This document shows positions 3,194 through 58,929 of a stretch of DNA of 64,000 bases, in pieces. This stretch comes from Meyerozyma guilliermondii (Eukaryota). Both the position numbers and the translations under genes were made by a program. The stretch's first letter is position 1, and each line of letters starts with the position of its first letter. Below the pieces are notes generated by a model. The model did not search any database and was not told the DNA's origin. It worked only from the letters and a program-made list of their open reading frames with translations. The DNA lies in assembly GCA_051546255.1 (NCBI GenBank), contig CP128815.1, forward strand, positions 186,001 to 250,000, in the 5' to 3' direction.

Positions 3194-3281
3194 AATGCTG
3201 TCAAGTGAATGTTCATTGAATTATCAATGGTCGTTGCAAATGTCCTATTTGGGCCACGGCAATGGAACCGAAAAAAATTTA

Positions 3282-3353
3282 CTCCGATACGGGGAATCGA
3301 ACCCCGATCTGCTCGGTGAGAGCGAACTGTGCTAGCCATTACACCATATCGGA
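3282..3353 (-). tRNA. tRNA-Glu (anticodon CTC)
   Basis: Reverse complement TCCGATATGGTGTAATGGCTAGCACAGTTCGCTCTCACCGAGCAGATCGGGGTTCGATTCCCCGTATCGGAG folds as a 72-nt cloverleaf, with a downstream T-run terminator. Confidence 0.95.
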
Positions 3354-3874
3354 TAATTGGTGATTGAATTGCGCCGGGCACATTCAAGAGTTAGAGAGTG
3401 TACTCGACGTTCGGCTTCATTGCCTAATCTTGTTCGCAGCCATTGGTAGCCTATTCGCTATCTTCCTATTTTGGACAGCGGAAAAGATAACAAATTTTTT
3501 GCATTATCTCATGATCTCGGTGAATCTTGTGCTCGTAGAAAGTATGTACAAGACATGCCAAGTGCTAAAAATGGCACTGATTCACTCATTTTTCAGAGTT
3601 GTAAATTTTTGTGAATTAACTTTGGTTTACAATTCGACCGAATTTATGAGAGAAATGCACTTTTGGTTTTCTTCTTGGCATATCCTCGTCCAGGTGCAAA
3701 CTTAATGTTCTCTAACGATTGAGTCATTGATAAAAAGATTGAATATTTCCACGCTCTGTAAGTTGCAACTTTTTAAGGAAGAGTTAGTAGTAAAATGTGA
3801 TTAAGTCAGGGTCTACCCGGAAGAAAGAGATGTGGTATAACCCACATTTGTTTAATTTTAAAAAAAAAAGAAAG

Positions 3875-3946
3875 CTCCGATACGGGGAATCGAACCCCGA
3901 TCTGCTCGGTGAGAGCGAACTGTGCTAGCCATTACACCATATCGGA
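3875..3946 (-). tRNA. tRNA-Glu (CTC), identical second copy
   Basis: Same 72-nt sequence as 3282-3353, followed by a T-rich tract on the minus strand. Confidence 0.95.
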
Positions 3947-4273
3947 TTAACTGTAATGAAAAGTAACGTGTGCGACTAAGTGATCCAGACGGAAACGAAC
4001 ACAAATAAAACACTACAACACTCAATTCTCTACAACATTACCATGTATTATGTTTCTTTTCTTCTCTTAGTTCATCCTCTCTTTTCTCCCACTACTAAAA
4101 ATTTTTCCGATTGTTGGCTTACATAAGCCGAATGACCATGGAACATCCATAAACCGGCCACATTTCCTCCTTAATCAGGTCCGCACCAGCCCGAACAATC
4201 ATACAACATAACCCACATATATGAACGAAACGTTTCTAGAACCTTTGAGTTTCCAGTGAACCTATACTAGAAC

Positions 4274-14918: not shown

Positions 14919-16679
14919 ATGTCTGAAGCTAATAGCATGAAAAAAGGTACAGCGGCGGTTGAGATAACCAATATCGATAGTCCGAATTTGGCCGAAAAGT
15001 TGGGGGATGCTCATATGAACATTCTTCCTGCCAGGAAAGTGATTATTTGCCTCTCTGCCTTAGCATTGGGCATGATAATTTCCTTTGCAGATCAAACTGG
15101 TGTAACTGTTGCTTTACCTCACATTGGAAAAGAGTTGCACGCAGAAACTACCATCAACTGGGCGGGAACTGCGTCTTTGCTAGCCAACTGTGTTTGCCAA
15201 GTATTGTTTGGAAGATTGTCAGATATTTTTGGAAGAAAACAGATTATGATTGGATGCTTGGCCATTCTTGTTGTAGCTGATTTGTGCTGTGGCTTTGCAC
15301 AAACTGGGGTGCAATTTTACATCTTCAGAGCTTTTGCAGGTATTGGCAACGGAGGTGTATCATCTCTTTCCATGGTCATATTGAGTGACGTTGTGACGCT
15401 AGAACAACGTGGAAAGTTTCAAGGTATTTTAGGGGCCAATGTGGGAGTTGGTAATGCTATAGGACCATTTCTCATGGCTGCATTTGTCAAACACAGAAGC
15501 TGGAGAGATTTTTACTACTTACTTGCTCCAATGGGACTCCTTGTGATTATTGCAGTATACTTTTTGGTGGAGGACAAGCAGAAGGATAGCAGATTATTGA
15601 ACTATAAGGAGAAATTCCAAAAGATTGATTACTTTGGTATACTCTTTGCAACTGCTGGGTTGACATTGTTGCTTATTCCAATTAGCGGTGGCGGGTCCAC
15701 TTACGCCTGGAACAGTCCTATTGTAATCACAATGTTTGTTGTTGGAGGGGTTTTGATGATTGTTTTTCTTTTGATTGAGTGGAAGGTTCCACAACTCCCA
15801 ATGATTCCCCTTTATATCTTCAAAAGAGCTCTGTTGAGTTTGCTTTTGGGATCAACCTTCTTTTTTGGAATGGCGTACTTTGGCTTCATGTACTACGTCC
15901 CCTACTATTTTCATGTTGTAAAAGGGAGGGACATCATTCATACGTCGATATTCTTATTACCACTTGTGTTGAGCCAGCTGATTATGTCGATCGTCAGTGG
16001 GCAGATAATCACACGCACTGGCCACTACATTTATGTTGTATGGGCCGGTTATGTCATGTGGTTCGTGAGTTGCGGTCTTTTGATTTTATGGGATGACAAA
16101 CTTAGCGATGGAGTCAATGTGGTTGTTCTTTTGTTGATGGGCAGTGGTGTGGGGTTCACATTTCAGCCAACTATGGTGGCAGCTCAAGCCCAATCCAAGA
16201 AAGCTGACCGTGCAGTTGTTATCTCCACCAGAAATGTTCTTCGATCTTTCGGTGGTGCTGTGGGAATTGCCATTGGATCTACTACCGTCAGCAACACCTT
16301 CTTGAATAACATATCAAGTATTGAGGAGAATAATGTGACGAATATTCCCCAAAGCTATTTTGATTTCCTTAGGAAACACATCTACCAAACCATTGATACG
16401 ACCAAATTGAACCCGCAACAAGCTGAGGTAGTCCGAAGGATGTACGTGAAGGCGCTCAAAAACTACTTTTATTTGTTGATCCCATTCATCGGGATTTGTC
16501 TCATTTGTTCTTTGTTTGTGCGGGATAGGGGATTGCAATGTATCGACGAGCCCACTAAGGAAGAACGGGATCTTGGCACTGAGATCGAGAAGACTCGATA
16601 TGCCAATTCGTCCCATGATTTAGAGTCAACAGCTGGTTCGAACGCTACCGTTGATTCTGAAGCGACTCGTACGCATTAA
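14919..16679 (+). CDS. MFS drug:H+ antiporter (DHA2, 14-TM type)
   Basis: GRLSDIFGRK motif A, many TM segments, IDYFG loop motif. Confidence 0.92.
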   Translation: MSEANSMKKGTAAVEITNIDSPNLAEKLGDAHMNILPARKVIICLSALALGMIISFADQTGVTVALPHIGKELHAETTINWAGTASLLANCVCQVLFGRLSDIFGRKQIMIGCLAILVVADLCCGFAQTGVQFYIFRAFAGIGNGGVSSLSMVILSDVVTLEQRGKFQGILGANVGVGNAIGPFLMAAFVKHRSWRDFYYLLAPMGLLVIIAVYFLVEDKQKDSRLLNYKEKFQKIDYFGILFATAGLTLLLIPISGGGSTYAWNSPIVITMFVVGGVLMIVFLLIEWKVPQLPMIPLYIFKRALLSLLLGSTFFFGMAYFGFMYYVPYYFHVVKGRDIIHTSIFLLPLVLSQLIMSIVSGQIITRTGHYIYVVWAGYVMWFVSCGLLILWDDKLSDGVNVVVLLLMGSGVGFTFQPTMVAAQAQSKKADRAVVISTRNVLRSFGGAVGIAIGSTTVSNTFLNNISSIEENNVTNIPQSYFDFLRKHIYQTIDTTKLNPQQAEVVRRMYVKALKNYFYLLIPFIGICLICSLFVRDRGLQCIDEPTKEERDLGTEIEKTRYANSSHDLESTAGSNATVDSEATRTH

Positions 16680-27030: not shown

Positions 27031-28718
27031 TGGTTTTCATCCTTGTCGGTGGTAACAATCTCATCGATACACTGCAAACCACGATCCTTAATGAATAACG
27101 ATCCCACGAAACACACGCCAATTATAGGTATGATAGCATAAAAAAAGTTCTTGATGGCCGACATGTACATGTCTTTCACGATGCTAACTTCAGAGTCTGA
27201 CAACCCGGTGATGCTAATCTTGCTGTAAATATGGTCTTTCAAATAATGCAAGTATTCCACGGGAATTCTGGGGTGGTTCAATTCCTCATTGACTTCTTTC
27301 AAAAGACTGTTGGATACAATCAACGACCCTACAGCAATACCAACAGCACCTCCAAAGGACCGAAGCACATTTCTCGCCAGTATCACCACAGCACGGTCTG
27401 CCTTCCTCGCATGGGCCTGTATTGCAACCATTGAAGGTTGAAAGATGCAGCCGGCACCGATTCCAATGACAAGAAGGATACCCACTAAAGGACCCGCTGG
27501 GGTGCTCTTGGTCCAAATACAAAGCAAACCGTATCCTAGCGTCCATATACCAAATCCACAGCAAAGCACAATCTTGTAGTGTCCCATTATTGATATCAAA
27601 TTGCCAGCAACTGTCGACAGAACCGATTGAGTGAGCACCAATGGAAGAAGAAAAACTGCAGTTCTGAGAGAACTATCTTGCCGAATGATTTGGAAGTAGT
27701 AAGGAAGATAGTACTGAAAAGCATAGTATGCCATTCCGTATAAGAAATTGAAGAAAAGTAACAATGATAACAGAGCAGAGCCAAAGAGTCTGAGTGGAAT
27801 CATAGGCAATGGTGGTACCTTCCATTCTATAAGGATGAACAGTATCATGCACAATCCACCTATTATGAAAAGGACAATGACCAAAGAACTATTCCATGCA
27901 TATGTCGAGCCACCACCACTCACTGGGATCAACAATAAAGTCAAAGAAGCTGTACTGAACACAAGCCCCAAGTAATCTATCTTTTTGAATTTTTGAGACC
28001 TGGTCAATACGGTCGACGACTTTTTGCTCTTCACCACAAAACAGATTGCAGTTATAACGAGTAAGTTTGTTGGGGCAAGGAAATAGTAGAAATCTCGCCA
28101 TGAATGGTGTTCAGCAAATGCCGCCATAAGAAAAGGACCAACGGCATTTCCAATACCAATTTGAGCACCGAGAATACCCTGAAATCTTCCTCTTTGCTTC
28201 AAAGTCACGACGTCACTTAGTATGACCATCGTCATGGATTGAACTCCGCCTCCTCCAATTCCGCAAAAGGCACGGAAAATGTAAAACTGGGGTCCGGTTT
28301 GAGCAAATCCACAGCATAACTCTGCAATCGAAAGTATAACGAGGGAAGAAACTAGCACTGATTTTCGACCAAAGATATCAGAAAACCTCCCTAAAAGCAC
28401 CTGTGATACACAGTTGGCTAATAAAGATGCGGTACCTGCCCAATTGATGGTGTTCTGTGCATGCAAGTCTTTTCCTATTAATGGAAGTGCAACTGTTACG
28501 GCAGATTGATCGGTCATCATCATAAGAAGCCCTAAAGATAACACTGCGAGAACAGATATGAGTTGCCTTGTAGGTAAAATGTTCAAATGGGATGCTCCAA
28601 GCTTTTCAGCAAGTTCATGGTCGAGTTTGGATCCATGATTTGCATGTGGTTCATGAACCTCAAGCTTTTCGTTGGGTGTGTTTGCCCGAGAATTTGATTC
28701 TTCTGAGGCTGTCTTCAT
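27027..28718 (-). CDS. MFS DHA2 transporter, paralogue of 14919-16679
   Basis: GRFSDIFGRK; shares TINWAGTASLLANCV and DRGLQCIDE with the other copy. ATG at 28718. Confidence 0.92.
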   Translation of the reverse strand: MKTASEESNSRANTPNEKLEVHEPHANHGSKLDHELAEKLGASHLNILPTRQLISVLAVLSLGLLMMMTDQSAVTVALPLIGKDLHAQNTINWAGTASLLANCVSQVLLGRFSDIFGRKSVLVSSLVILSIAELCCGFAQTGPQFYIFRAFCGIGGGGVQSMTMVILSDVVTLKQRGRFQGILGAQIGIGNAVGPFLMAAFAEHHSWRDFYYFLAPTNLLVITAICFVVKSKKSSTVLTRSQKFKKIDYLGLVFSTASLTLLLIPVSGGGSTYAWNSSLVIVLFIIGGLCMILFILIEWKVPPLPMIPLRLFGSALLSLLLFFNFLYGMAYYAFQYYLPYYFQIIRQDSSLRTAVFLLPLVLTQSVLSTVAGNLISIMGHYKIVLCCGFGIWTLGYGLLCIWTKSTPAGPLVGILLVIGIGAGCIFQPSMVAIQAHARKADRAVVILARNVLRSFGGAVGIAVGSLIVSNSLLKEVNEELNHPRIPVEYLHYLKDHIYSKISITGLSDSEVSIVKDMYMSAIKNFFYAIIPIIGVCFVGSLFIKDRGLQCIDEIVTTDKDENH

Positions 28719-49994: not shown

Positions 49995-50055
49995 CTGGTG
50001 GTGGGTTATAAGCATTAAGTTCTCATCGCTTTTTCGCGGGGAAACTTATTTGTTA

Positions 50056-50820
50056 ATGGCAAGAGCTGAGATAGGAACCGCCAAATACCAAGCTAAAAAA
50101 TTAAAGGCTTCGGGGTTACAGCAGCTAAAGTACTACTGCCAGCTATGCCATAAACAATGTAGGGATGCTAATGGCTACAAAAACCATTTACTGTCACCAT
50201 CACACAAGGGTAGAGTTGAAGATATGGAACAAAAGGGTACGAAAAAAGTAACGGAGGACTTTTCAAGGCAGTTCTTGAATGCTTTCATGACATTGTTGAG
50301 AATAAGCCATGGTACCAAGAGCGTTGATGCCAACAAATTTTACCAGGAGTACATTTCCAACGACCGAGATCATGTACATATGAACTCCACAAAATGGTCG
50401 AGTTTAACTCTGTTTGTACAGTATTTGGGGAAAAATAGCTACGTGAGGGTAGAACAGCCTGGTGACGACGAGAATGACCACAGTCTTATGATTAGCTATA
50501 TTGATCACTCGGATCAAAAATCTGTTCTGGTGAAGAGACAGCAGCTGATGAAAAATGATGAAGAACAATCCATGCGTTTCCTCAGCCAGCAAATAGAGGC
50601 AGGGAGAAACGAGAAGCATATACACAAAGAAAACGATAGCGTTCACGAAGTGAAGGAGATACCGAAGGAGGGAATCAAAGTACAGTTACGACCCAAGATG
50701 AGTGAGAAGAAGAAAACTGCTGCTGCTTTTAATTCGGAAGAGTCTGAAGATTCTGAAGATGAAGCGAAACAAAAGAAGACAAATATCGGTCAGATCAGCA
50801 AAAAATTACTTGGGCGATAA
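50056..50820 (+). CDS. RTS2: KIN17-like zinc-finger protein
   Basis: GLQQLKYYCQLCHKQCRDANG, ANKFYQEYI, HVHMNSTKW. Confidence 0.92.
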   Translation: MARAEIGTAKYQAKKLKASGLQQLKYYCQLCHKQCRDANGYKNHLLSPSHKGRVEDMEQKGTKKVTEDFSRQFLNAFMTLLRISHGTKSVDANKFYQEYISNDRDHVHMNSTKWSSLTLFVQYLGKNSYVRVEQPGDDENDHSLMISYIDHSDQKSVLVKRQQLMKNDEEQSMRFLSQQIEAGRNEKHIHKENDSVHEVKEIPKEGIKVQLRPKMSEKKKTAAAFNSEESEDSEDEAKQKKTNIGQISKKLLGR

Positions 50821-50876
50821 TCTTCAGTGAAAAATACTTGAACGATAAAATACTGATAATGTCGTCATCTATTCGT

Positions 50877-53243
50877 CTAAACTCTTTCGTAACACAAGAC
50901 ATAAACATCTCGAGAGTTGAGCTCCCGGTATTCCCCATGTGGATCGGCGGCGTCTCCGTGTCTGACCTTGATTCGAACTTGCTCATCATCGAAGAAGCAC
51001 CAACAAGGATCTCGCAAGCTGTCCATTCCCGAAGTCCGAGATGACTTGTTCACTAATGCAGTATAATGACCACTTTTCAACGTTCCGTAATGATTGATGA
51101 TTCCGGTGAGCTTATAGGTGATTTCGTGGTTGGAATTGTTGGTGTTGTTGTTAAAGGTAATTTGTAATGGATACTTTATAACAGTGTCCAATTTATCGGT
51201 GACACTGGTCATAGAAAACCGAGATAAATGCATGAAAAGTATTTTGGGCAACTTGATAAAGTTGAGCTTTTTTGTAGTGGAGCCTAGTGATGTGGTTGAT
51301 GAAGTTTGGCTACCATTCTGTGGTTTTTTGCTAGGAGATTTACTACGTCTTCCCAACTTGAAAAGCCCACTCTTTTTAGTTGCGAACACAGGATGTGAGT
51401 CTAGCACACTGGAAGACAGCGGACTGGAGATGTTTTTCGAACACTTGGGACATTTCCATGCATTTTCTCCAGTCAAGATTTCGTCCTTTGTATAATAACG
51501 CAAACAGTCTGCCAAGTCCACTCGATGACCATGACCCAGAGGTATTGGTAAAGATAAAATGGTAAATGGGGAGTAGTTACTCGATTCAAACCCACATTTA
51601 TTGCAGATCAATTTGCTCTGCAAGTGCCCTTGAAATAAATCGTGAATTGGGGAGAACCCTTCCAATTTCAAAAGTGATCGATACCATGATATATAAGGCT
51701 CACGGTCTTCAGGACTTACGTTGATACCCCATTTCGTCATGTAGCGACCAATTCGATCGTTTTCCCATTCGGTTTCATCAAACGCTTTGGAGCCAAGCTC
51801 ATTGTGTAACATTTCCAACACAAACAATAAGAATTCTTGGGAGTCCTGCTGCTCATAAGGAATGTTCAAGTCCGGCTTTAATAAAGAAGAAACCCGAAGA
51901 AATTTGGTCGGGGCAATGGAAGCTTGCGGATGATCTTTGAAGGTCTTAAGCAAGCTGAATATTGCTTCACTTAAGAGCCCCGAGTCCTTGGTAGGATGTC
52001 GTTGTTGGAGAAGCTTGACATACTTGGGGTTCTTCACATACTTCAAATAACCCTGATTCTCAAATATCAACGAAAAATCGTACAACCCAAAAAGCAATTG
52101 GATTGTCAGATTGATGTAGCAGGTAGACCCGAAATTCTTAAGACCACAAATTGTGTACTTGCCCATATCACGGGACATCAGACGTCCGTGGGTGTGACCA
52201 TTATGGGTGTAACCATTATGATTTGAGTAATACTGCTCATTACCGCGGGGAGGTGGCTGATGAATATGATTTGCAGGTTGCGGAACAGGGTTCCGCTGGT
52301 ACTGAGCACTTTGAGAATAACCATGAGGAAATGACTGATTCGAGGACATGTACGGGCGAGCTTCGTAGCTCGTCTCAAGCTGAACTGGAGTGGCATTGGG
52401 AATGGGAGGTGGTAATTGCTTCGGTCTCGGTTGGACTGGAGGTTGGACATTTGAGCTGAAATACAAGTCATCAGTCGAGACACCTTTTTCATCATCCAAA
52501 GGATAAGGAGGTGTAGGGCTCCTTGTGAAGGTGCTATTCACCGGATAGGGAGGTGTTGGGAACGACTGGGCTTTTACTTCTGGGGAAATGAAATCGAACG
52601 AACCATTATTCGGCGATGAATTTGAAGGAAGGTCCACCGACGGAAAACGTTCTTCAAACAGATTGAGAGACTGTCTGTCGTACTCTATTGAGGGCTGAGC
52701 ATAAGTCACTCCGTTGGCTGATCGCAGGTCGTCACTTTGAAATTCTTCTTGGTCTTTTTGCTTGAGGTAATCGATATACTGGTAGAGCCAATCATATAAT
52801 TCTTGCACGTCAAAAGACAAAAGTTTTTGGTCTGTCAAGAACTCGATGATCCATTGGCGCACCAACTCAAGTGACAACGAATGACCTCTATCTCGGATCA
52901 CATCTTTGGTGTTATAAAATGCAAAGACGTTCAAGTATAATATGAAGTCTGGTTCGTTGGATTCAATAAACTTGTCAAATCCTTGAAAATGGAGCATAAT
53001 GAAGCAGTTTATAAAGTAATTGAATATCAAATACCCCCGCATGTACGCCTTTAACCCGGAGTCCGAGTCCGTGTACTCTACCAGTTTCTCATATAAGAGT
53101 TCACAATAGTCGATAAGATCAAAGATAGATTTGGTTTTGAGGTCCTGTGCAAGTTGAAGGTCTCGAAACTCTCGGCTAATGAGCTTCTTATATTGATTTT
53201 TCACGTCCTCCGGAGGCTTTCTAGCAGCTGGTTCCGATGACAT
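50877..53243 (-). CDS. Ubiquitin-specific protease (Ubp7/Ubp11-like)
   Basis: GLKNFGSTCYIN Cys box, QQDSQEF, HYGTLKSGHYTA His box. Confidence 0.9.
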   Translation of the reverse strand: MSSEPAARKPPEDVKNQYKKLISREFRDLQLAQDLKTKSIFDLIDYCELLYEKLVEYTDSDSGLKAYMRGYLIFNYFINCFIMLHFQGFDKFIESNEPDFILYLNVFAFYNTKDVIRDRGHSLSLELVRQWIIEFLTDQKLLSFDVQELYDWLYQYIDYLKQKDQEEFQSDDLRSANGVTYAQPSIEYDRQSLNLFEERFPSVDLPSNSSPNNGSFDFISPEVKAQSFPTPPYPVNSTFTRSPTPPYPLDDEKGVSTDDLYFSSNVQPPVQPRPKQLPPPIPNATPVQLETSYEARPYMSSNQSFPHGYSQSAQYQRNPVPQPANHIHQPPPRGNEQYYSNHNGYTHNGHTHGRLMSRDMGKYTICGLKNFGSTCYINLTIQLLFGLYDFSLIFENQGYLKYVKNPKYVKLLQQRHPTKDSGLLSEAIFSLLKTFKDHPQASIAPTKFLRVSSLLKPDLNIPYEQQDSQEFLLFVLEMLHNELGSKAFDETEWENDRIGRYMTKWGINVSPEDREPYISWYRSLLKLEGFSPIHDLFQGHLQSKLICNKCGFESSNYSPFTILSLPIPLGHGHRVDLADCLRYYTKDEILTGENAWKCPKCSKNISSPLSSSVLDSHPVFATKKSGLFKLGRRSKSPSKKPQNGSQTSSTTSLGSTTKKLNFIKLPKILFMHLSRFSMTSVTDKLDTVIKYPLQITFNNNTNNSNHEITYKLTGIINHYGTLKSGHYTALVNKSSRTSGMDSLRDPCWCFFDDEQVRIKVRHGDAADPHGEYRELNSRDVYVLCYERV

Positions 53244-53487
53244 CACCCGTTGATCTTGCTAGATGAAACCTTTGCGAGGGTTGGATTCAGGTTGGTGAGC
53301 CACGGGATGGTTGCTTGCAATTGGACCCACTAGCAAGAATACTCAAACGGCAACAAAATGTTGTCCAAACAAATAAAGATCTTACACTTCTCCGACCTAG
53401 GTGATCGAATCTTGGCTATCCTGCAGAAAAGTACCAATAGTGCGGATTTACAATAAGGCTGTGAACCTATATTCTATAACCTCCACT

Positions 53488-54140
53488 ATGTATAAGGTAG
53501 TATCTGTTGTCTTTAATGATTACATCTCTAATGAAGTTCCAAAAGAAGTACTTGAACATTATCTTATGGGGGCTACTTGTAATTTTCCAGGTACCTTGTA
53601 ATTTTCCAGGTACCTTAAGATTGGTTCTCAAACCCGGAAGGGAACTTAAACAAACTGGTCCTTATATGGTACCACCTATTAGATGGCTTGACAGCTTTGA
53701 ATATTATGCTGAATTTGACATCACATGCAAAATAGAATGAAATAGTAAAATGAACAGCTTAAGATTGTCTTGATTATTTTTCTGATGTTACCCATAAAAC
53801 TTTAAGCGCATTTTATATGTCGAATATACATCCCTTGAAGATGATATGGTTGTGATTAATTTAACAAATGAAAGTAGTGAGTGGCCGTTAATAAGCGAAA
53901 AACCGACTAAGAATTCTAAAGAATTTCCTAAGAAATCTGGAATACATTATTTTCAAACATGTATGTAGGATTAGCAGAAAGAAAAGATATGAATGAAGAA
54001 TTTTATGTACCAAAAATGTATAGAACGGATCATTTGAACGGAAAAGATACAATATTATACAAAAATGTGAATAATGAAAAAATAAACATTATAAGAATAC
54101 CTAAAAGCATTAAAGAAGAAGAACACAGAAAAAGGTTATG
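53488..54140 (+). pseudogene. Degenerate AT-rich coding-like relic of probable foreign origin
   Basis: Successive + strand ORF fragments; a 19-bp duplication causes a frameshift; sampled lines are only about 18-27% GC. Confidence 0.5.
53577..53614. repeat. 19-bp perfect tandem duplication TTGTAATTTTCCAGGTACC x2
   Basis: Read directly from the sequence. Confidence 0.95.
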
Positions 54141-54215
54141 TGTTTTACTATTTACACCCCACCCCAAAAAAATCTGGCTGAAGCTACTGCTTAGACTATA
54201 TAGTTTATGTCTATT

Positions 54216-55934
54216 TTATGACGGGTTAAAGGGAATCACCCCGTATCCTTGGATAATGGAGTCGTACATCGAAGGGTCCGATGAAGTTGCCGTGCCGTCT
54301 CTGCGAGTTTCGTAAAACATATCCATATCCTCTTCTTCATCATACGCTGGTTGTGCCTGAGACATCATTGAATAGTTAAATTGTGGAGTGGGCTGAGGTG
54401 TAGAGCTTCCTTGGTAATGTAGCGGGTGGTGAGCCGAGACTGGTTCCTGCGACACTTGACGTTGTTGCACCTCGGTCAAGTTTCTCATCGTTTCCCAGAA
54501 ATCAGGACCTTCTTCTATCTCTTCTTCCTCACTCGGTTCGTACTTCTGGCGCTTGTAGTGACCCCGGTCTGTTTGCAGCGAGCGCGCGAGAGAATTGTTG
54601 GTTCGAAGCTGGTCATTGGCTTCTACTGCTGATGCCATCTCTACTGCACGAGTTAGTGGAGTAAGATTGTCCTTTTGCTTATTATTGAGCAACCGATAAA
54701 GTCCCTGATCCCTCGTAGGATCAGGCGGAGATCGCATCTCACGTTGACCGAGAGCCGGCAGGGTATTGGAGGAATTGAGTTTGGGAACCTCAGTCAATGG
54801 CGGCAAATAGTTGAAATGCTGATGTCGCTTGACTTCCAGTTCATAATTGCGGCCGGTATCGACTGGATTTGAACCTATGGGTGAAAGCAGAAGATTGTCA
54901 AATTGGGGAGGTGAGATTTGGTTGAGAATATTGAGGTTCGGTATGGCCAGCCCTGACAAACCCACGTCTTGTGGAACCTGCGATGAGTAGTGGTGGTGAA
55001 TATGCTGATGCACCGTGATTTCCAAATGATGTGACTTTGCATAGGAAATTAATGCTTGAACCAATTGTTCATTTTTTATGGCTCCTCCATTTTCGTTATC
55101 AAAGAGTAAGCGATGAGGAAGCTCGGAATCAGCAGGTGTAGCTCGTGTCAGTTCCAACGAGTAACGCCAATCAATATTACTGGAAGCTGGTTTTGCTCCC
55201 AATGGCGGCGCCGGCGGTACAGTATTTTCTTTTCGAGGACGTGGTGGATCCATCTCACTTTTAGGAATAGGTCTGTCATCTTTCAAAGTATTATCGTTAC
55301 TCGTGATCGCCCTAACCTCTTCCTCCACATACGCATCGGCGGTGCCTCGCACTACATCAGTGACGATTTTACGCCATCGATTTCGACACGTGAGAGACGG
55401 ACGGCCCTTTAAGTCCAAACAAACTGTGCGCCACTTTGTTCCGTGTAACTTTACCTGTCGTATCAACTTAAGATCCTCTTCTCTACTCCATGGTCTCAAC
55501 CTATCTTTCGTTTCTGGATCCAATACTTCCAAGTACCGTTTTGCACATTGATCATCAGTCCGTCCAGGTATTTCTTTAGCCACCCTTTGCCAATTGGCAT
55601 CATATGTCTTGTAAGCATTGACTAACATATCATCTTCTTCTTTCGTCCATCTTCCCCTCCTCAAGCTGGGGTCCAATGAATTACACCAACGTTTTCTCAA
55701 ATCCTTTGGTTTCCGTAGTCCATCAGGAGAAAGCTGCTCGGCCAATGCATCCCATTTCACCGTTTCAGGGTCTAGTTGTGTGGTATCTGGATGCATTTGT
55801 CCTATCAAGTGGATCAAAGCTTCATCTTCTTGTCTTGTCCAAGGCTTTCTAGCACCTCTGCGGTGGGTCTGGAAACCCAACGACTCAGTTGCGGCCAAGG
55901 GATCGATGGGCTCGTATTTTTTCTTCATAGACAT
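54216..55934 (-). CDS. BAS1: Three-repeat Myb transcription factor of the purine/histidine regulon
   Basis: DPL..TESLGFQT.RR..RKPWT, RKPKDLRKRW..SLDP.LR.G.WT, GRTDDQCAKRY, GRPSLTCRNRWRKI. Confidence 0.9.
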   Translation of the reverse strand: MSMKKKYEPIDPLAATESLGFQTHRRGARKPWTRQEDEALIHLIGQMHPDTTQLDPETVKWDALAEQLSPDGLRKPKDLRKRWCNSLDPSLRRGRWTKEEDDMLVNAYKTYDANWQRVAKEIPGRTDDQCAKRYLEVLDPETKDRLRPWSREEDLKLIRQVKLHGTKWRTVCLDLKGRPSLTCRNRWRKIVTDVVRGTADAYVEEEVRAITSNDNTLKDDRPIPKSEMDPPRPRKENTVPPAPPLGAKPASSNIDWRYSLELTRATPADSELPHRLLFDNENGGAIKNEQLVQALISYAKSHHLEITVHQHIHHHYSSQVPQDVGLSGLAIPNLNILNQISPPQFDNLLLSPIGSNPVDTGRNYELEVKRHQHFNYLPPLTEVPKLNSSNTLPALGQREMRSPPDPTRDQGLYRLLNNKQKDNLTPLTRAVEMASAVEANDQLRTNNSLARSLQTDRGHYKRQKYEPSEEEEIEEGPDFWETMRNLTEVQQRQVSQEPVSAHHPLHYQGSSTPQPTPQFNYSMMSQAQPAYDEEEDMDMFYETRRDGTATSSDPSMYDSIIQGYGVIPFNPS

Positions 55935-55976
55935 GGTCGGAAACGAAGCTACAGGGGCTCTTGCAAAGTTGTTGAC

Positions 55977-56001
55977 CGCGAGTCAATTTCTGTGACTCGC
56001 G
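55977..56001. promoter_or_regulatory. Inverted pair of TGACTC (Bas1/Gcn4-type) sites
   Basis: CGCGAGTCA-N7-TGACTCGCG, a perfect 9-bp inverted repeat 43-67 nt upstream of the BAS1 ATG. Confidence 0.7.
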
Positions 56002-56040
56002 AGGGGCTTGCGATGCCCTTACCTAAGCGTTCGCGAAAGC

Positions 56041-57006
56041 TTACGCAGCGGTCTTCTGTAAAGTAGCCCTGTGGTTCTTATTCTTGATAAGACGAATCAA
56101 GTTACGAAGAAGCATGGCTATGGTCACCTTTCCGATCGATGGTACGTATAAGCCAGCCTTTTGCTTGACATCGTCGTTGAAATTTTTGTTCGATGAAAAG
56201 TTGATCACCACCGCACCATTGCGAACATAGTTGGTGGGGAACTTGTAGGACTCTGATGGCACTCCAGTAATGATCACATCACATTGAGGAGCCAAGGATT
56301 CCAAGGTATGTTCCTTCGAGTCCAAATCGATCACCTTGTGTCTTTGTTCCAGTAAATCGTCTCCGCGAGTGAACTGCTGGATATTATTGATATCTACCGA
56401 GTAGACAGTAGCACCATCATTAGCAAGTAGAGCTGCCAAGGGACGACCAACAATCTCCGACCGGTTGACAATAAGAACTTTTTTACCATAGAGTCTGTTC
56501 CCATAGTGGAGAATAATGTTGTATACGCCCAAATATTCCAAGATTTTCACCATTGCAAGTGGAGTACATGGTAAGATGGATTTCTGCTCGTTATAAGGTG
56601 GATCCAAGAATCGGACGTTATGGTAGAGGTTGTGGTAGTACATGAAGTTGAGCCCCTCCACATCCTTCTCGGTTGATATGAGTTGTTGAAGATACTGATC
56701 TTGGTTATCTCCAAACACTGGGAAATACACCATAATTCCATGAACATTATCGTCTTTATTCGCCTTCATCAACGCGCTTTCCAAGTCGTTCTTGTCCACC
56801 TGGACCAACTCGTACTCAAACCCAAGTCCCTCACACGTTTTGCCAGTCCAATTGGCATACATCTGAGCCGCGGGGTCTCCATTAGCGAGAAAGCCAACCA
56901 ACTTGGGTTTGAAACCTAGTTGTTGCACGCTGGCGGTGATTTCTTCTACGAACGGTTTAGCGATTGTTGAAGCTAGGATTGTTCTTCCGGCCGGCTTAGA
57001 TGACAT
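56041..57006 (-). CDS. MTD1: NAD-dependent methylenetetrahydrofolate dehydrogenase
   Basis: KPAGRTILAS, GIMVYFPVFG, KDVEGL, PCTPLA, NRSEIVGRPLAALLANDGA. ATG at 57006. Confidence 0.95.
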   Translation of the reverse strand: MSSKPAGRTILASTIAKPFVEEITASVQQLGFKPKLVGFLANGDPAAQMYANWTGKTCEGLGFEYELVQVDKNDLESALMKANKDDNVHGIMVYFPVFGDNQDQYLQQLISTEKDVEGLNFMYYHNLYHNVRFLDPPYNEQKSILPCTPLAMVKILEYLGVYNIILHYGNRLYGKKVLIVNRSEIVGRPLAALLANDGATVYSVDINNIQQFTRGDDLLEQRHKVIDLDSKEHTLESLAPQCDVIITGVPSESYKFPTNYVRNGAVVINFSSNKNFNDDVKQKAGLYVPSIGKVTIAMLLRNLIRLIKNKNHRATLQKTAA

Positions 57007-57168
57007 GTTGAATGTATAAAGTGGTTTTGCAGCGAATGCGGGCTGCGTGGGTCTTATATACCTTACGTAAATTAATGAATTACCTGCGATGACGATTGAC
57101 TCGGGTGAATGTGTGCAGGATGATAGACTGGCAATGAATTGAAGTGATTGACCCAAGTGTAGTATTCG

Positions 57169-58929
57169 TTAGCGCAAATGGGCGCTTGCATTTTTGTAGA
57201 GACTGTGCCAAATAAAAGCTTCACTGAGCATAAGTTCCACATCTCTTTCTGTCCATCCACTTGTTGGTGGGTTCTGCAAGAAGAGAATAATCTCTTGAAA
57301 TTCCTTGTGTTTGAGTTCATTACTAAACTTGATCAAGAATGCCGCACATACGTAAACATGGAAACTGTTGAACCCGAGTGGAGTCTCACTCAAGTATGTG
57401 TCCCACATTCTAATAATTAGCGGGATGGAAATTTCTCGCATGAGCAAGCAGTTCATCCACCGGAACGAGAACTGAAGGAACTCGATTCCTTCGCTATCGA
57501 AATGCTGTAGTAACTCCACATCAATCTTGGAGATCAAATTCCGCAAATCACCAACTTGCCGAATAATACCAGGTTGTTCATGAATGTAGTTGTCAGTAAT
57601 ATTGTCAAGAAGCCTTGACAAGCACCAGTATGTATCCGCCTCTATGATTAATGTAGCTCTACTGGAAAGCCTACCGGGATCAAAGGTATCTGCTGACAAC
57701 CTGGCCAATTGAGGGTCGTCCAAAATAGCCTTTTCGCATTCATCATTATCATCGAGCAAGTTGGGAATGAAGAGCTCCTCACCTTCTCCCGTTCTTTTCT
57801 TTTGTAATTGCCAAAGATAGTTTTGAAGAAAGATCTGATAGAAAGGAGTGACTAGATCATTTATACCTTGGACGTAACCACTCGCCGGGTGTCGAATGGC
57901 CCACAAAAATAAAACTTTTCTAAGCGACCGCTGAGTGGCTGGGTAGCCATAGAGTTTGATGGTGGGGTTAGTTCTCTTGACATCAATTTTGATCTGGTGG
58001 TATATTTGCTTATCGCGGTTCGAACTTGTGGTGGACGGGAGAGACAACTCGGAGCGAGACGCTTCAGCATTGGCATTTGCTGCGTCTTCGTCTAGGTCAA
58101 TATTGGACACTGTATTGATGCCCTCTGCGTATTCTTGACGTTTTCTTTTGAGTGTGGACTGCTGTCTTGAATGGTTGGTAGGCAAGTAGCCAAGGAGAAG
58201 TTGCCATGACAAAGCCCGTAGTTCCTGCGGAATCCCGTTCCACGAGAGTTTTCGAAGCTCAGTTAAGTCGATGTTTGCATCAGAAGTTAGCACCTTGTGA
58301 AACTTCATGTATTTACTGTTGAGTTGATTCAATCGACTCACTTCCATCTTCATCTTGAGATCCTCGTAGTCCATAGAGTCCTTGTCTGGTAGAGCCGGTT
58401 GCGACACCGGTATGAGGTCCGGATATAATGAATCAACCATTACTGGCATCTGATTGTCGTAGCGAGGGTTGCTATTTGAAAAGCTTTTTGTGGTCTTCGC
58501 CACGGGTGCCTCGTCCACCTTTTCCAAGTCTGCATCCCAGTCATCATCTAAGTCTTTGTACTTTAATTTTGTTGATTTCTTTAAGCTGGGATTTGAATTG
58601 GCGATAGACTGATTTGAGTACAAGGAGAGATTCTTCTCAGGCACACCCATGTGAGCATATGAGCTTCCTACCGGTCCTGAGACGGACCTACCAGACAGTC
58701 TTACCGATGAGCTGCTTCTTCGTTGCATAGATTGGGCAGGACCATAAGAAAGTTCTCCGTAAATGTTGCGATTGACATCGTCTTCAGCCTCGCCCGAACG
58801 AGTTGACGAGCCTGTAAGAGATAGATTCTTCAAAAAAGATGATAGATGTTTCCCACGGCCACCCCGCTCTCCAAATATGAACTCGTTGCTTCCATATACC
58901 TGGGACATCTCCTGCTTTTTTTTCCCCAT
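57169..58929 (-). CDS. GYP1: TBC-domain Rab GAP
   Basis: LSWNGIP, QIKIDVKRT, HPASGYVQGINDL, QFSFRWMNCLLMRE. Confidence 0.93.
   Translation of the reverse strand: MGKKKQEMSQVYGSNEFIFGERGGRGKHLSSFLKNLSLTGSSTRSGEAEDDVNRNIYGELSYGPAQSMQRRSSSSVRLSGRSVSGPVGSSYAHMGVPEKNLSLYSNQSIANSNPSLKKSTKLKYKDLDDDWDADLEKVDEAPVAKTTKSFSNSNPRYDNQMPVMVDSLYPDLIPVSQPALPDKDSMDYEDLKMKMEVSRLNQLNSKYMKFHKVLTSDANIDLTELRKLSWNGIPQELRALSWQLLLGYLPTNHSRQQSTLKRKRQEYAEGINTVSNIDLDEDAANANAEASRSELSLPSTTSSNRDKQIYHQIKIDVKRTNPTIKLYGYPATQRSLRKVLFLWAIRHPASGYVQGINDLVTPFYQIFLQNYLWQLQKKRTGEGEELFIPNLLDDNDECEKAILDDPQLARLSADTFDPGRLSSRATLIIEADTYWCLSRLLDNITDNYIHEQPGIIRQVGDLRNLISKIDVELLQHFDSEGIEFLQFSFRWMNCLLMREISIPLIIRMWDTYLSETPLGFNSFHVYVCAAFLIKFSNELKHKEFQEIILFLQNPPTSGWTERDVELMLSEAFIWHSLYKNASAHLR

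What the first reader, a model, noticed from the sequence alone, without database searches (positions are those of the whole stretch)
53400..54200. AT-rich decayed gene between the UBP and BAS1: candidate captured plasmid or virus-like element DNA
Seen: in a genome whose gaps are often under 300 bp, this is a ~970-bp gap, and sampled 60-nt lines in it are only ~18-27% GC. A perfect 19-bp duplication (53577-53614) shifts the frame. Deleting one copy joins two ORF-track fragments into MYKVVSVVFNDYISNEVPKEVLEHYLMGATCNFPGTLRLVLKPGRELKQTGPYMVPPIRWLDSFEYYAEFDITCKIE. Further + strand fragments follow (..YVEYTSLEDDMVVINLTNESSEWPLISEKP.., MYVGLAERKDMNEEFYVPKMYRTDHLNGKDTILYKNVNNEKINIIRIPK..) with A/T-ending codons. 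Known: yeasts, including Debaryomycetaceae, carry nuclear relics of AT-rich cytoplasmic linear plasmids (pGKL/pPac-type killer elements) and of viruses. Inference: this is such a captured, pseudogenised gene, possibly from an undescribed element. I cannot assign the protein family.
Basis: partly seen in the sequence, partly recalled or inferred. Interest (0 to 1): 0.75.

Follow-up and report, generated by a model that had tools for sequence, protein, structure and literature searches.

The report
Relic of yeast killer-type helper plasmid
The AT-rich stretch between the ubiquitin-hydrolase gene and the BAS1-like gene is dead, scrambled DNA captured from a cytoplasmic linear "helper" plasmid of the killer-plasmid type, which is a known kind of genomic fossil in yeasts.

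Summary
The gap 53244-54215 (972 bp) contains the most AT-rich stretch of the window and a perfect 19-bp tandem duplication.

About 53459-54126 is a mosaic of three genes of a pGKL2-type cytoplasmic linear helper plasmid (virus-like element, VLE).

- **ORF8-type gene (Pfam DUF5474), 53488-53740.** It is full length. The duplication is its only break seen. Its family includes UniProt P05474, "killer plasmid pGKl-2 protein 8".
- **Start of the next plasmid gene, 53763-53828.** By position and size this is ORF7, the small RNA polymerase subunit.
- **Internal piece of the ORF9-type gene (DUF5483), 53873-54126.** It covers about residues 212-300 and has one frameshift. Its orientation is not the native one. 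The best matches are the Millerozyma acaciae and Pichia etchellsii plasmid proteins, E about 1e-18.

Nothing else in the window matches these families. This is a new instance of a known class, the NUPAVs.

One side lead: the ORF8 family folds like domain 2 of the RNA polymerase alpha/Rpb3 subunit.

The parts
50877..53243 (-). Host gene on the left flank: ubiquitin C-terminal hydrolase (UBP). Its promoter side faces the relic.
   Evidence: 788-aa ORF. Pfam UCH PF00443, E 8e-51.
53244..53458 (.). Host-like intergenic DNA, presumably the UBP promoter. It has no plasmid homology.
   Evidence: GC 44.7%. No hits to the three plasmid family HMMs.
53459..53464 (+). Hexamer CTGTGA, 29 nt before the ORF8-like ATG. 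It is a one-mismatch copy of the VLE promoter motif ATNTGA (UCS).
   Evidence: Read from sequence. ATTTGA lies at -35 in L001 (identical to pGKL2 over the parts compared), ATGTGA at -26 in L002 and ATATGA at -36 in L003. UCS positions of -8 to -108 are listed in Table 4 of PMC8472843. Seen by eye and not tested statistically.
53466..53486 (-). First ~7 codons of the ORF9-type gene. They lie back to back with ORF8 with a 1-nt spacer, as in pGKL2. The start position now reads GTG, and a stop follows after 12 codons.
   Evidence: The minus-strand translation VEVIEYR... compared with the N-termini of 17 DUF5483 proteins, e.g. MEIIEYK.... Geometry in L001/pGKL2. Seen by eye, no statistic.
53488..53740 (+). 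ORF8-type (DUF5474) pseudogene. It is full length, and the 19-bp duplication is the only break seen.
   Evidence: Pfam PF17568: piece 1 matches positions 1-36 of 77 (32 bits), piece 2 matches positions 28-76 (60.1 bits); the curated cut-off is 25. Own family HMM scores 37.1 and 78.0 bits. tblastn to pGKL2 ORF8 (L001) gives E 4.8e-23 with 57% and 50% identity. Alignment A1.
53576..53616 (+). Perfect tandem duplication of 19 bp (2.2 copies) that shifts the ORF8-type frame by +1.
   Evidence: TRF score 82, 100% matches. Shared by P0001 and P0002.
53750..53828 (+). 5' remnant of the gene that follows ORF8 in helper plasmids. By position and size this is ORF7, the small RNA polymerase subunit. There is an ATG at 53750 in another frame. 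Homology covers 53763-53828, about residues 7-28.
   Evidence: tblastn E values: L002 130-aa ORF 1.5e-5, L003 148-aa ORF 1.9e-4, pGKL2 (L001) 2.2e-5 with 61% identity over 18 aa. Three-sequence HMM scores 23.3 bits, against a maximum of 7.5 in 100 block shuffles.
53873..54126 (+). Internal fragment of the ORF9-type (DUF5483) gene, about residues 212-306 of ~455. There is one frameshift at the T-run near 53950-53954. The orientation is opposite to the native plasmid arrangement.
   Evidence: 41 of 43 family proteins hit it by tblastn at E<=0.01. The best are P0055 (M. acaciae) 1.9e-18, P0057 (P. etchellsii) 6.6e-18 and K. lactis 8.3e-12. Family HMM scores 27.1 and 50.6 bits over hmm positions 220-306, against a maximum of 4.6 in 100 shuffles. 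Pfam PF17581 scores 15.4 and 17.7 bits, below its cut-off of 27.
54127..54215 (.). Tail of the AT-rich stretch and the 3' flank of the BAS1-like gene. The right-hand junction lies somewhere in 54127-54177.
   Evidence: GC 32-35%. Only gapped, unconvincing extensions of the ORF9 alignments reach here.
54216..55934 (-). Host gene on the right flank: Myb-domain transcription factor (BAS1-like). Its 3' end faces the relic.
   Evidence: 572-aa ORF. Pfam Myb_DNA-binding, E 4.7e-34.

Best explanation
About 53459-54126 is a NUPAV, a dead nuclear relic of a cytoplasmic linear dsDNA helper plasmid (virus-like element) of the pGKL2 / pPac1-1 / pPE1B type. It lies between two ordinary host genes.

It consists of at least two plasmid fragments. 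Fragment A (about 53459-53865) keeps the native plasmid layout. On the minus strand it holds the first codons of ORF9. On the plus strand it holds the ORF8 promoter motif, a full-length ORF8-type gene (DUF5474) and the start of the next gene (ORF7-type). Fragment B (53873-54126) is an internal piece of the ORF9-type gene (DUF5483), placed downstream and in the non-native orientation.

Inferred origin: plasmid DNA fragments that reached the nucleus were ligated into a chromosomal double-strand break, as is known for mitochondrial DNA. They then decayed, acquiring a 19-bp tandem duplication in ORF8 and single-base frameshifts in the ORF7- and ORF9-type pieces.

Inferred present state: no protein function. 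The relic contains no complete gene of the plasmid's replication or transcription machinery, and the nuclear machinery cleaves and polyadenylates such AT-rich transcripts internally. Its only likely effect today is as AT-rich spacer or 3'-end sequence between the BAS1-like gene and the UBP promoter.
For: Shown by tools:

1. Both halves of the ORF8-type gene pass Pfam's DUF5474 cut-off and together cover model positions 1-76 of 77.
2. The DUF5474 ORF of metagenome locus L001 sits in a 90%-identity cluster with UniProt P05474, 'Uncharacterized killer plasmid pGKl-2 protein 8'. That of L002 clusters with 'putative maintenance protein' of Saccharomycopsis fibuligera and S. malanga. L001 is 100% identical to the K. 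lactis DUF5483 protein (177 of 177 aa) and to P05474 (95 of 95 aa). It shows the layout ORF9(-) | ORF8(+) then the next gene(+).
3. The DUF5483 family (43 hits) includes the pSKL, M. acaciae, P. etchellsii, S. selenospora and K. lactis plasmid proteins. 41 of the 43 match window 53873-54126. A family HMM scores 50.6 and 27.1 bits, against at most 4.6 in 100 shuffles.
4. The remnant of the gene after ORF8 scores 23.3 bits, against at most 7.5 in 100 shuffles, and it lies where the plasmid layout predicts.
5. Among 2465 six-frame pieces of the whole window, only pieces in this gap hit the three HMMs.
6. GC steps from 44.7% (host flank) to 35.2%, 29.3% and 27.6% across the three pieces. Host genes are at 43-47%. 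VLEs are 73-76% A+T (PMC8472843, section 2.2 read).
7. The flanks are host genes.

From papers:
- NUPAVs were seen in 40% of 20 budding-yeast genomes (passage in PMC5499181).
- Nuclear transcripts of AT-rich VLE genes are cleaved at internal poly(A) sites (abstract and passages of PMC4431711).
- Whole helper plasmids are found integrated in Saccharomycopsis chromosomes (passages of bioRxiv 10.1101/2023.07.20.549855).
Against: - No relative's genome could be examined, so absence of the insert at the orthologous site in sister species (the direct proof of insertion) is not shown.
- Pfam's own DUF5483 model scores the two fragments below its cut-off: 15.4 and 17.7 bits against 27.
- The label 'ORF7 / small RNA polymerase subunit' for the middle remnant rests on gene order and size (130-148 aa against 130-132 aa in the papers). 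Pfam and PDB sequence searches gave nothing significant for it.
- The ORF8-type piece is less AT-rich (35% GC) than the known VLE average and, apart from the duplication, has no other lesion. It is therefore either young or was constrained for a time.
- The junctions and the break-repair mechanism are inferred, not observed.
Confidence: 0.93

Rival explanations
1. An ordinary small host nuclear gene (a DUF5474 protein) that happens to be AT-rich and was recently inactivated by a duplication. On this reading the rest of the gap is just promoter and terminator DNA.
For: - The exhaustive search found DUF5474 relatives mostly as unnamed 'hypothetical proteins'. One lies on a 47-kb contig (P0016), and several have GC-richer-looking compositions.
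- The gap lies between a promoter and a convergent 3' end, where AT-rich DNA is normal.
Against: - The family contains pGKL2 protein 8 itself.
- In L001, L002 and L003 the gene sits in plasmid context, next to DUF5483, a helicase and DUF5482.
- The window also carries pieces of two other plasmid genes right beside it.
- This is the lowest-GC stretch of the whole window by a wide margin.
Confidence: 0.03
2. Assembly chimera: reads of a free cytoplasmic plasmid present in the sequenced strain were wrongly merged into the chromosome.
For: - Free VLEs are high-copy and AT-rich, and can contaminate assemblies.
- No read-level check was possible.
Against: - The pieces are short, scrambled and broken: a frameshifting duplication, single-base frameshifts and only ~87 of ~455 ORF9 codons. 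A free helper plasmid would be expected to keep these genes intact.
- Both flanks run without a break into host genes.
- The same frameshifted ORF occurs in two other protein variants, on 9 and 2 contigs of up to 4195 bp.
Confidence: 0.02
3. Captured mitochondrial DNA (a NUMT) rather than plasmid DNA.
For: Yeast mitochondrial DNA is also AT-rich, and NUMTs are found in almost all yeasts (passage in PMC5499181).
Against: - Reading TGA as Trp (table 4) does not open the frames.
- Pfam scans of all six frames, read through stops, found only DUF5474 above E 0.09 and no mitochondrial family.
- All significant matches are to linear-plasmid proteins.
Confidence: 0.01
4. A domesticated, still-functional element. 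For example, the ORF8-type gene might be expressed in two pieces or by frameshifting, or the AT-rich insert might have been co-opted as the BAS1 terminator or a UBP upstream element.
For: - Apart from the duplication, the ORF8-type reading frame has no stop or indel, and it keeps the family's conserved residues.
- The relic is retained with the same duplication in at least three sequence variants.
- It fills the BAS1 3' region.
Against: - The two ORF pieces would cut the predicted single compact domain in the middle.
- A VLE promoter motif is not expected to be read in the nucleus, since the plasmids transcribe in the cytosol with their own polymerase (passages).
- AT-rich VLE genes are cleaved and polyadenylated internally when transcribed there (PMC4431711).
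- No expression data could be obtained.
Confidence: 0.05

Closest known systems
[quoted passage not shown]
   Same: VLE-derived, AT-rich, degenerate DNA lying between host genes on a yeast chromosome.
   Different: - According to PMC4431711, immunity genes are the largest group among described plasmid-derived NUPAVs. This one comes from helper-plasmid housekeeping genes (ORF8, the next gene, and ORF9).
- Whether this exact locus is already listed in the 2009 paper could not be checked.
pGKL2 of Kluyveromyces lactis and the helper plasmids pPac1-1 (M. acaciae), pPE1B (P. etchellsii), pSKL and pDH4C/5B/6B
   Same: - The same three gene families.
- The same back-to-back ORF9 | ORF8 geometry with a 1-nt spacer.
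- The same ORF8 length once one repeat copy is discounted (234 nt).
- A promoter-like hexamer about 30 nt upstream.
   Different: - Only about 690 bp of a ~13-15 kb element are present.
- There are no terminal inverted repeats and no polymerase genes.
- Identity is only 49-68% to the nearest named proteins.
- The ORF9 piece is inverted and displaced.
- All the genes are broken or truncated.
Whole helper-plasmid integrations in Saccharomycopsis fibuligera chromosome 2 and Saccharomycopsis sp. UWOPS 91-127.1 (bioRxiv 10.1101/2023.07.20.549855, passages)
   Same: Helper-plasmid DNA integrated in a nuclear chromosome.
   Different: Those are complete 13-kb elements with inverted repeats. This is a small two-fragment mosaic in advanced decay.
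NUMTs (nuclear copies of mitochondrial DNA inserted at repaired double-strand breaks; Ricchetti 1999 as cited in PMC5499181)
   Same: The likely mechanism of capture. Short, non-contiguous fragments of an AT-rich extranuclear genome are ligated into an intergenic break.
   Different: The source is a cytosolic plasmid, not the mitochondrion.

Membership tests
NUPAV (nuclear relic of a cytoplasmic linear plasmid) | Significant homology to proteins encoded by cytoplasmic linear plasmids / VLEs | tested here: met
   There are matches to three plasmid gene families. One includes pGKL2 protein 8. The ORF9-type family includes the proteins of pSKL, M. acaciae, P. etchellsii and K. lactis.
NUPAV (nuclear relic of a cytoplasmic linear plasmid) | Embedded in chromosomal DNA between host nuclear genes | tested here: met
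   Continuous sequence runs from a UCH-hydrolase gene to a Myb-domain gene. No read-level confirmation was possible.
NUPAV (nuclear relic of a cytoplasmic linear plasmid) | Base composition departs from the host towards the plasmid's high A+T | tested here: met
   27% GC over 400 bp against a window mean of 43%. GC is 35.2%, 29.3% and 27.6% in the three pieces against 44.7% in the flank.
NUPAV (nuclear relic of a cytoplasmic linear plasmid) | Absent from the orthologous site of relatives (an insertion, not ancestral sequence) | not testable with these tools
DUF5474 / pGKL2 ORF8 family | Score above Pfam's curated cut-off across the whole 77-position model | tested here: met
   32 bits for positions 1-36 and 60.1 bits for positions 28-76; the cut-off is 25.
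DUF5474 / pGKL2 ORF8 family | Intact open reading frame | tested here: not met
   The 19-bp tandem duplication splits the frame. It is a pseudogene of the family, not a working member.
DUF5483 / pGKL2 ORF9 family | Score above Pfam's curated cut-off and coverage of the ~470-position model | tested here: not met
   15.4 and 17.7 bits against a cut-off of 27, and only positions 217-294 are covered. Homology of the fragment itself is secure: own HMM 50.6 and 27.1 bits against at most 4.6 in shuffles, and tblastn E 1.9e-18. It is a fragment, not a gene.
Free cytoplasmic VLE (the stretch being a plasmid itself) | Terminal inverted repeats, a protein-primed B-type DNA polymerase gene and a complete housekeeping gene set | tested here: not met
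   Only pieces of three genes lie within ~690 bp. There are no long inverted repeats around the gap and no further hits to the three plasmid HMMs in the window. The helicase and DUF5482 proteins of L003 gave nothing in 53000-54400. DNA and RNA polymerase genes were not searched for specifically.
NUMT | Homology to mitochondrial genes or DNA | tested here: not met
   No mitochondrial family appears in six-frame Pfam scans. Frames stay closed under table 4. The host's mitochondrial genome itself was not available.
RNA polymerase alpha / Rpb3 / archaeal D subunit, domain 2 (for the ORF8 protein family, side lead) | Same fold over the whole domain, standing clear of unrelated structures | tested here: inconclusive
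   AlphaFold model of the intact relative P0003: pLDDT 93.1, pTM 0.80. In a Foldseek-independent search of 48,161 chains, the top 14 rows are all RNA polymerase entries. These include S. solfataricus D/L, C. jejuni alpha, ASFV and vaccinia, with Z 8.0 down to 4.3. For the rows at Z 5.4 or more, 84-86 of 87 residues are aligned at rmsd 2.5-3.0. Unrelated rows start at Z 3.6. Foldseek E-values are weak, 0.18 or worse. There is no sequence-level support, and Z about 8 is in the range the tool calls middling.

The most novel reading that the evidence does not exclude
The relic preserves a full-length copy of the ORF8-type gene. That gene family (Pfam DUF5474, 'function unknown', annotated at most as 'maintenance protein') is the missing alpha/Rpb3-like platform piece of the plasmid-encoded RNA polymerase.

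The predicted fold of an intact relative matches domain 2 of alpha/Rpb3/D over its entire length and nothing else. The gene also lies directly beside the small polymerase-subunit gene in pGKL2. The literature I could read lists no alpha/Rpb3 homologue in the VLE polymerase. PMC6211774 says it lacks 'obvious alpha subunit homologs' (passage), and Table 1 of PMC2919709 lists only Orf6.

In addition, the source plasmid would be an undescribed helper-plasmid lineage of this yeast's ancestors.
Probability: 0.4. Interest if true: 0.6.

Novelty: new member of a known kind. Interest (0 to 1): 0.35.

Why it matters
- **For the genome.** This turns an unexplained AT-rich gap into an annotated fossil. 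It shows that this yeast lineage once hosted, or met, a pGKL2-type helper plasmid whose nearest sequenced relatives are only 49-68% identical. Such relics are the only record of plasmids that are present in just 1-2% of isolates today (passages in PMC11848437).
- **For annotation.** It explains why gene callers emit a 69-aa 'protein' here (P0001, P0002) that is half out-of-frame junk.
- **For plasmid biology.** Helper-plasmid housekeeping genes appear less often reported as nuclear relics than immunity or toxin genes.
- **The side lead.** If confirmed, an alpha/Rpb3-like fold for ORF8 would add a third component to a polymerase described as having two subunits. It would also tighten the link to poxvirus and ASFV polymerases, whose Rpb3-like subunits appear in the same hit list.

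Tried and rejected
- **Whole-genome search.** No genome is held for this window.
- **tRNA scan of 50000-58000.** It found none, so this is not a tRNA-linked element.
- **Repeat search over the window.** No second copy of the gap sequence exists, so it is not a dispersed repeat or solo LTR.
- **Mitochondrial code (table 4).** It does not open the frames.
- **Word-based homologue search with the second ORF8 half.** It found only the same locus from other samples.
- **Profile search with alignment A1.** It gave 11 hits, none named.
- **ESM Atlas on P0003.** No usable hit.
- **The search for related loci with A1.** With A2, the viral collection gave none.
- **Paper search for DUF5474, DUF5483, PF17568, PF17581.** 0 papers.
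- **PDB sequence search with the profile of the gene after ORF8.** Nothing significant. The best E was 0.13, and an archaeal Rpo1C row at E 0.91 is not evidence.
- **Pfam on the gene after ORF8.** Nothing significant.
- **Complex prediction of the L002 ORF8-type protein with the L002 product of the next gene.** The verdict was 'no answer' (score 0.00, controls not run, alignments not used), so it says nothing either way.
- **Extension of the ORF7-type homology into frame 2 (53828-53865).** It looked plausible by eye against pGKL2, but the three-sequence HMM did not report it. I treat it as unsupported.
- **A second weak hit of that HMM inside the ORF9-type fragment (4.8-6.3 bits).** Rejected, because that stretch is much better explained by ORF9.
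- **Earlier findings of this scan.** Nothing was found by words, sequence or place.
- **Frank and Wolfe 2009.** The paper is not held.
Full report
**1. The observation**

The window is 43% GC. Read with the CTG=Ser yeast code, it shows a 788-aa ORF at 50877-53243 (-) and a 572-aa ORF at 54216-55934 (-). Pfam identifies them as a ubiquitin C-terminal hydrolase and a Myb-domain protein. The 972 bp between them is the 5th longest of 32 gaps between ORFs of 150 aa or more, and it has the lowest GC of the 16 gaps over 300 bp.

The stretch 53700-54099 is the lowest-GC 400-bp stretch in the window. It is at 27.0%, against 33.5% for the runner-up, a window mean of 43% and an sd of 3.3. Tandem Repeats Finder reports a perfect 19-bp repeat of 2.2 copies at 53576-53616. 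There is no tRNA nearby and no second copy of the gap sequence in the window. The 60-nt lines run from 20% to 43%.

**2. The first piece: an ORF8-type gene**

The two + strand ORF pieces on either side of the duplication both hit one Pfam family, DUF5474 (PF17568, 77 positions).
- Piece 1 covers positions 1-36, at 32 bits.
- Piece 2 covers positions 28-76, at 60.1 bits. The curated cut-off is 25 (repeated with stops read as X).

An exhaustive HMMER search with piece 2 found 17 relatives at E<=0.001. In the alignment, the two window pieces lie end to end on an ~80-aa family, and only the duplicated 7 residues overlap. Without one repeat copy the ORF would be 234 nt. That is the length given for ORF10 of the Debaryomyces hansenii helper plasmids, described there as a 77-aa protein highly similar to ORF8 of pSKL, pPac1-1, pGKL2 and pPE1B (PMC8472843, section 2.2 and Tables 4 and 5).

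The family's identity was settled by look-up.
- The DUF5474 ORF of metagenome locus L001 clusters at 90% or more with UniProt P05474, 'Uncharacterized killer plasmid pGKl-2 protein 8'.
- That of L002 clusters with 'putative maintenance protein' of Saccharomycopsis fibuligera and S. malanga.
- L001 is 100% identical to P05474 and to the first 177 residues of the K. lactis DUF5483 protein.
- The window gene is 57% and 50% identical to pGKL2 ORF8 over its two halves (E 4.8e-23), and 60% identical to the Saccharomycopsis one over its second half (32% over the first).

**3. The plasmid layout and the other two pieces**

In L001, which is identical to pGKL2 over the parts compared, ORF9 (DUF5483) starts on the opposite strand, 1 nt from the ORF8 start codon. 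A third gene begins 6 nt after ORF8 on the same strand. L002 and L003 show the same ORF8-then-next-gene order, with products of 130 and 148 aa. L003 also carries DUF5483 (E 1.5e-88), a helicase and DUF5482 in a compact contig of 31% GC. By numbering, size and strand this third gene is ORF7, the small RNA polymerase subunit. It is 132 aa in pGKL2 (PMC6211774 passages) and 130 aa on the strand opposite to the 463-aa gene in pDH4C. That label is an inference, because Pfam and PDB sequence searches gave nothing for it.

The window follows this layout.
- The minus strand just upstream of the ORF8-type ATG reads like the family's ORF9 N-terminus for about 7 codons, with GTG at the start position. 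This was seen by eye against 17 N-termini.
- A hexamer one mismatch from the plasmid promoter motif ATNTGA sits at -29. The comparable motifs sit at -35, -26 and -36 in L001-L003.
- After the ORF8-type stop, 53763-53828 matches residues ~7-28 of the next gene. E is 1.5e-5 for L002, 1.9e-4 for L003 and 2.2e-5 for pGKL2. A three-sequence HMM gives 23.3 bits, against at most 7.5 in 100 block shuffles.

From 53873 to 54126 the + strand encodes residues ~212-306 of the ORF9 family in two frames, with one frameshift at a T-run near 53950.
- The family search returned 43 proteins. They include those of pSKL, M. acaciae, P. etchellsii, S. selenospora and K. lactis.
- 41 of the 43 hit this stretch. The best are M. 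acaciae at 1.9e-18 (59% and 49% identity), P. etchellsii at 6.6e-18 (68% and 57%), and K. lactis at 8.3e-12.
- A family HMM scores 50.6 and 27.1 bits, against at most 4.6 in 100 shuffles.
- Pfam's own model had flagged the same positions (217-294), but below its cut-off.

In a plasmid these ORF9 codons would lie some 640-900 bp to the left of ORF8, on the other strand. Here they lie to its right, on the same strand. This is therefore a second fragment, inverted relative to the first. Across the whole window, only these pieces hit the three HMMs.

**4. What it is and how it arose**

The stretch is a nuclear relic of a helper-type cytoplasmic linear plasmid, that is, a NUPAV.

Shown:
- homology to three plasmid genes;
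- the native local geometry of fragment A;
- the composition step, from 44.7% GC in the host flank to 35.2%, 29.3% and 27.6% in the three pieces;
- the lesions;
- host genes on both sides.

Inferred:
- Capture was by ligation of plasmid fragments into a repaired chromosomal break, as demonstrated for mitochondrial DNA (Ricchetti 1999, as cited in PMC5499181).
- Decay after capture was neutral.
- There is no function now. Nuclear transcription of AT-rich VLE genes gives transcripts that are cleaved and polyadenylated internally (PMC4431711, abstract and passages). The VLE promoter motif serves the plasmid's own polymerase, since these plasmids do not use the nuclear transcription machinery (passages).

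The duplication is shared by two other public protein variants of this locus that differ by 1-2 residues. It therefore predates some divergence among isolates and is not an assembly slip.

**5. Rivals**

- **An ordinary host gene.** This is excluded by the pGKL2 cluster membership and by the two neighbouring plasmid gene pieces.
- **A NUMT.** This is excluded by the lack of any mitochondrial match and by frames that stay closed under table 4.
- **An assembly chimera with a free plasmid.** This is unlikely because the pieces are short, scrambled and broken. It could not be tested at read level.
- **Domestication.** This cannot be excluded for a non-coding role such as the BAS1 3' end. There is no evidence for it.

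**6. Comparison with what is known**

NUPAVs were reported in 40% of 20 budding-yeast genomes (PMC5499181 passage). Repeated capture of pDH1A is described in D. hansenii (PMC4431711 passage). Whole helper plasmids are integrated in Saccharomycopsis chromosomes, and many toxin loci are nuclear integrations (PMC11848437 passages). This case is a new instance of that class. It comes from housekeeping genes of a helper plasmid, and its nearest named relatives are only 49-68% identical. I could not read Frank and Wolfe 2009, so I cannot say whether this locus is already listed there. A search for 'NUPAV' found 9 papers. In those I opened I saw no mention of an ORF8-ORF9 relic.

**7. Side lead**

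With alignment A1, AlphaFold models the intact relative P0003 at pLDDT 93.1.
- **Foldseek against the PDB.** E-values are weak, 0.18 or worse, but 48 of the 50 rows shown are chains of multisubunit RNA polymerase entries.
- **VIA-align on Foldseek's list.** Z runs from 8.4 to 6.6 with mostly 84-86 (two rows 80) of 87 residues aligned, and all 50 rows are such entries.
- **Foldseek-independent search of 48,161 chains.** The top 14 rows are all RNA polymerase entries. They include the S. solfataricus D/L subcomplex, C. jejuni alpha, and the ASFV and vaccinia polymerases, with Z from 8.0 to 4.3. Unrelated rows begin at Z 3.6.
- **BFVD.** The named top rows are giant-virus RPB3 subunits.

The matched chain ranges are about 37-175, and 52-155 in E. 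coli alpha. From memory, this corresponds to domain 2 of the alpha N-terminal domain. The papers I read list no alpha/Rpb3 homologue for the plasmid polymerase (passages). A search combining VLE, Rpb3, pGKL2 and RNA polymerase found no paper making the link.

Against the idea: Z about 8 is what the tool calls middling, there is no sequence support, and the pull-down passages I read list ORF3, 4, 6 and 7 products but not ORF8. The complex prediction gave no answer and is not evidence.

**8. Verdict**

This is an ordinary, if neat, example of a known phenomenon, and interest is modest. The ORF8 fold lead is the most novel by-product.

Noticed in passing
P0003 (intact DUF5474 relative); bears on window 53488-53740: The ORF8 / DUF5474 family, annotated as function unknown, is predicted with high confidence (pLDDT 93) to fold like domain 2 of the RNA polymerase alpha / Rpb3 / archaeal D subunit. 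The top 14 of 48,161 PDB representatives are all RNA polymerase entries, including ASFV and vaccinia.
   Followed up: partly
L003:254-5108 and L004: Metagenome contigs carry a plasmid-like gene set in a non-pGKL2 order: ORF8 and the next gene on one side, then ORF9, a 133-aa ORF, a helicase and DUF5482 on the other. The ORF9 protein's nearest named relative is from Cunninghamella echinulata, at 54% identity. This fits the 2026 report of VLEs in Mucoromycota (PMC13348850 passages).
   Followed up: partly
window 3271-3354 and 3864-3947: Two copies of an 84-nt direct repeat (94% identical) lie 593 bp apart. Their sequence looks like tRNA genes on the minus strand. I did not run the tRNA finder there.
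   Followed up: no
window 15090-15239 and 28362-28511: A 150-nt inverted repeat with 73% complementarity, arms 13 kb apart and both inside long ORFs. It may reflect paralogous coding sequence.
   Followed up: no
P0001, P0002 (public protein records of this locus): Gene callers have emitted a 69-aa 'protein' from this relic. Its first ~22 residues are out-of-frame translation upstream of the duplication. This is an annotation artefact.
   Followed up: yes
P0043 residues 34-78 against window 53597-53731 (-): One 590-aa DUF5483 record has an N-terminal extension that matches the antisense strand of the ORF8-type gene (E 4e-7). This is probably an over-extended gene call across the back-to-back ORF8 in that element.
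   Followed up: no
window 50877-55934: From memory (not from a call), UBP11 (YKR098C) and BAS1 (YKR099W) are also neighbours in Saccharomyces cerevisiae. The UBP-BAS1 adjacency may therefore be old synteny into which the plasmid DNA was inserted.
   Followed up: no
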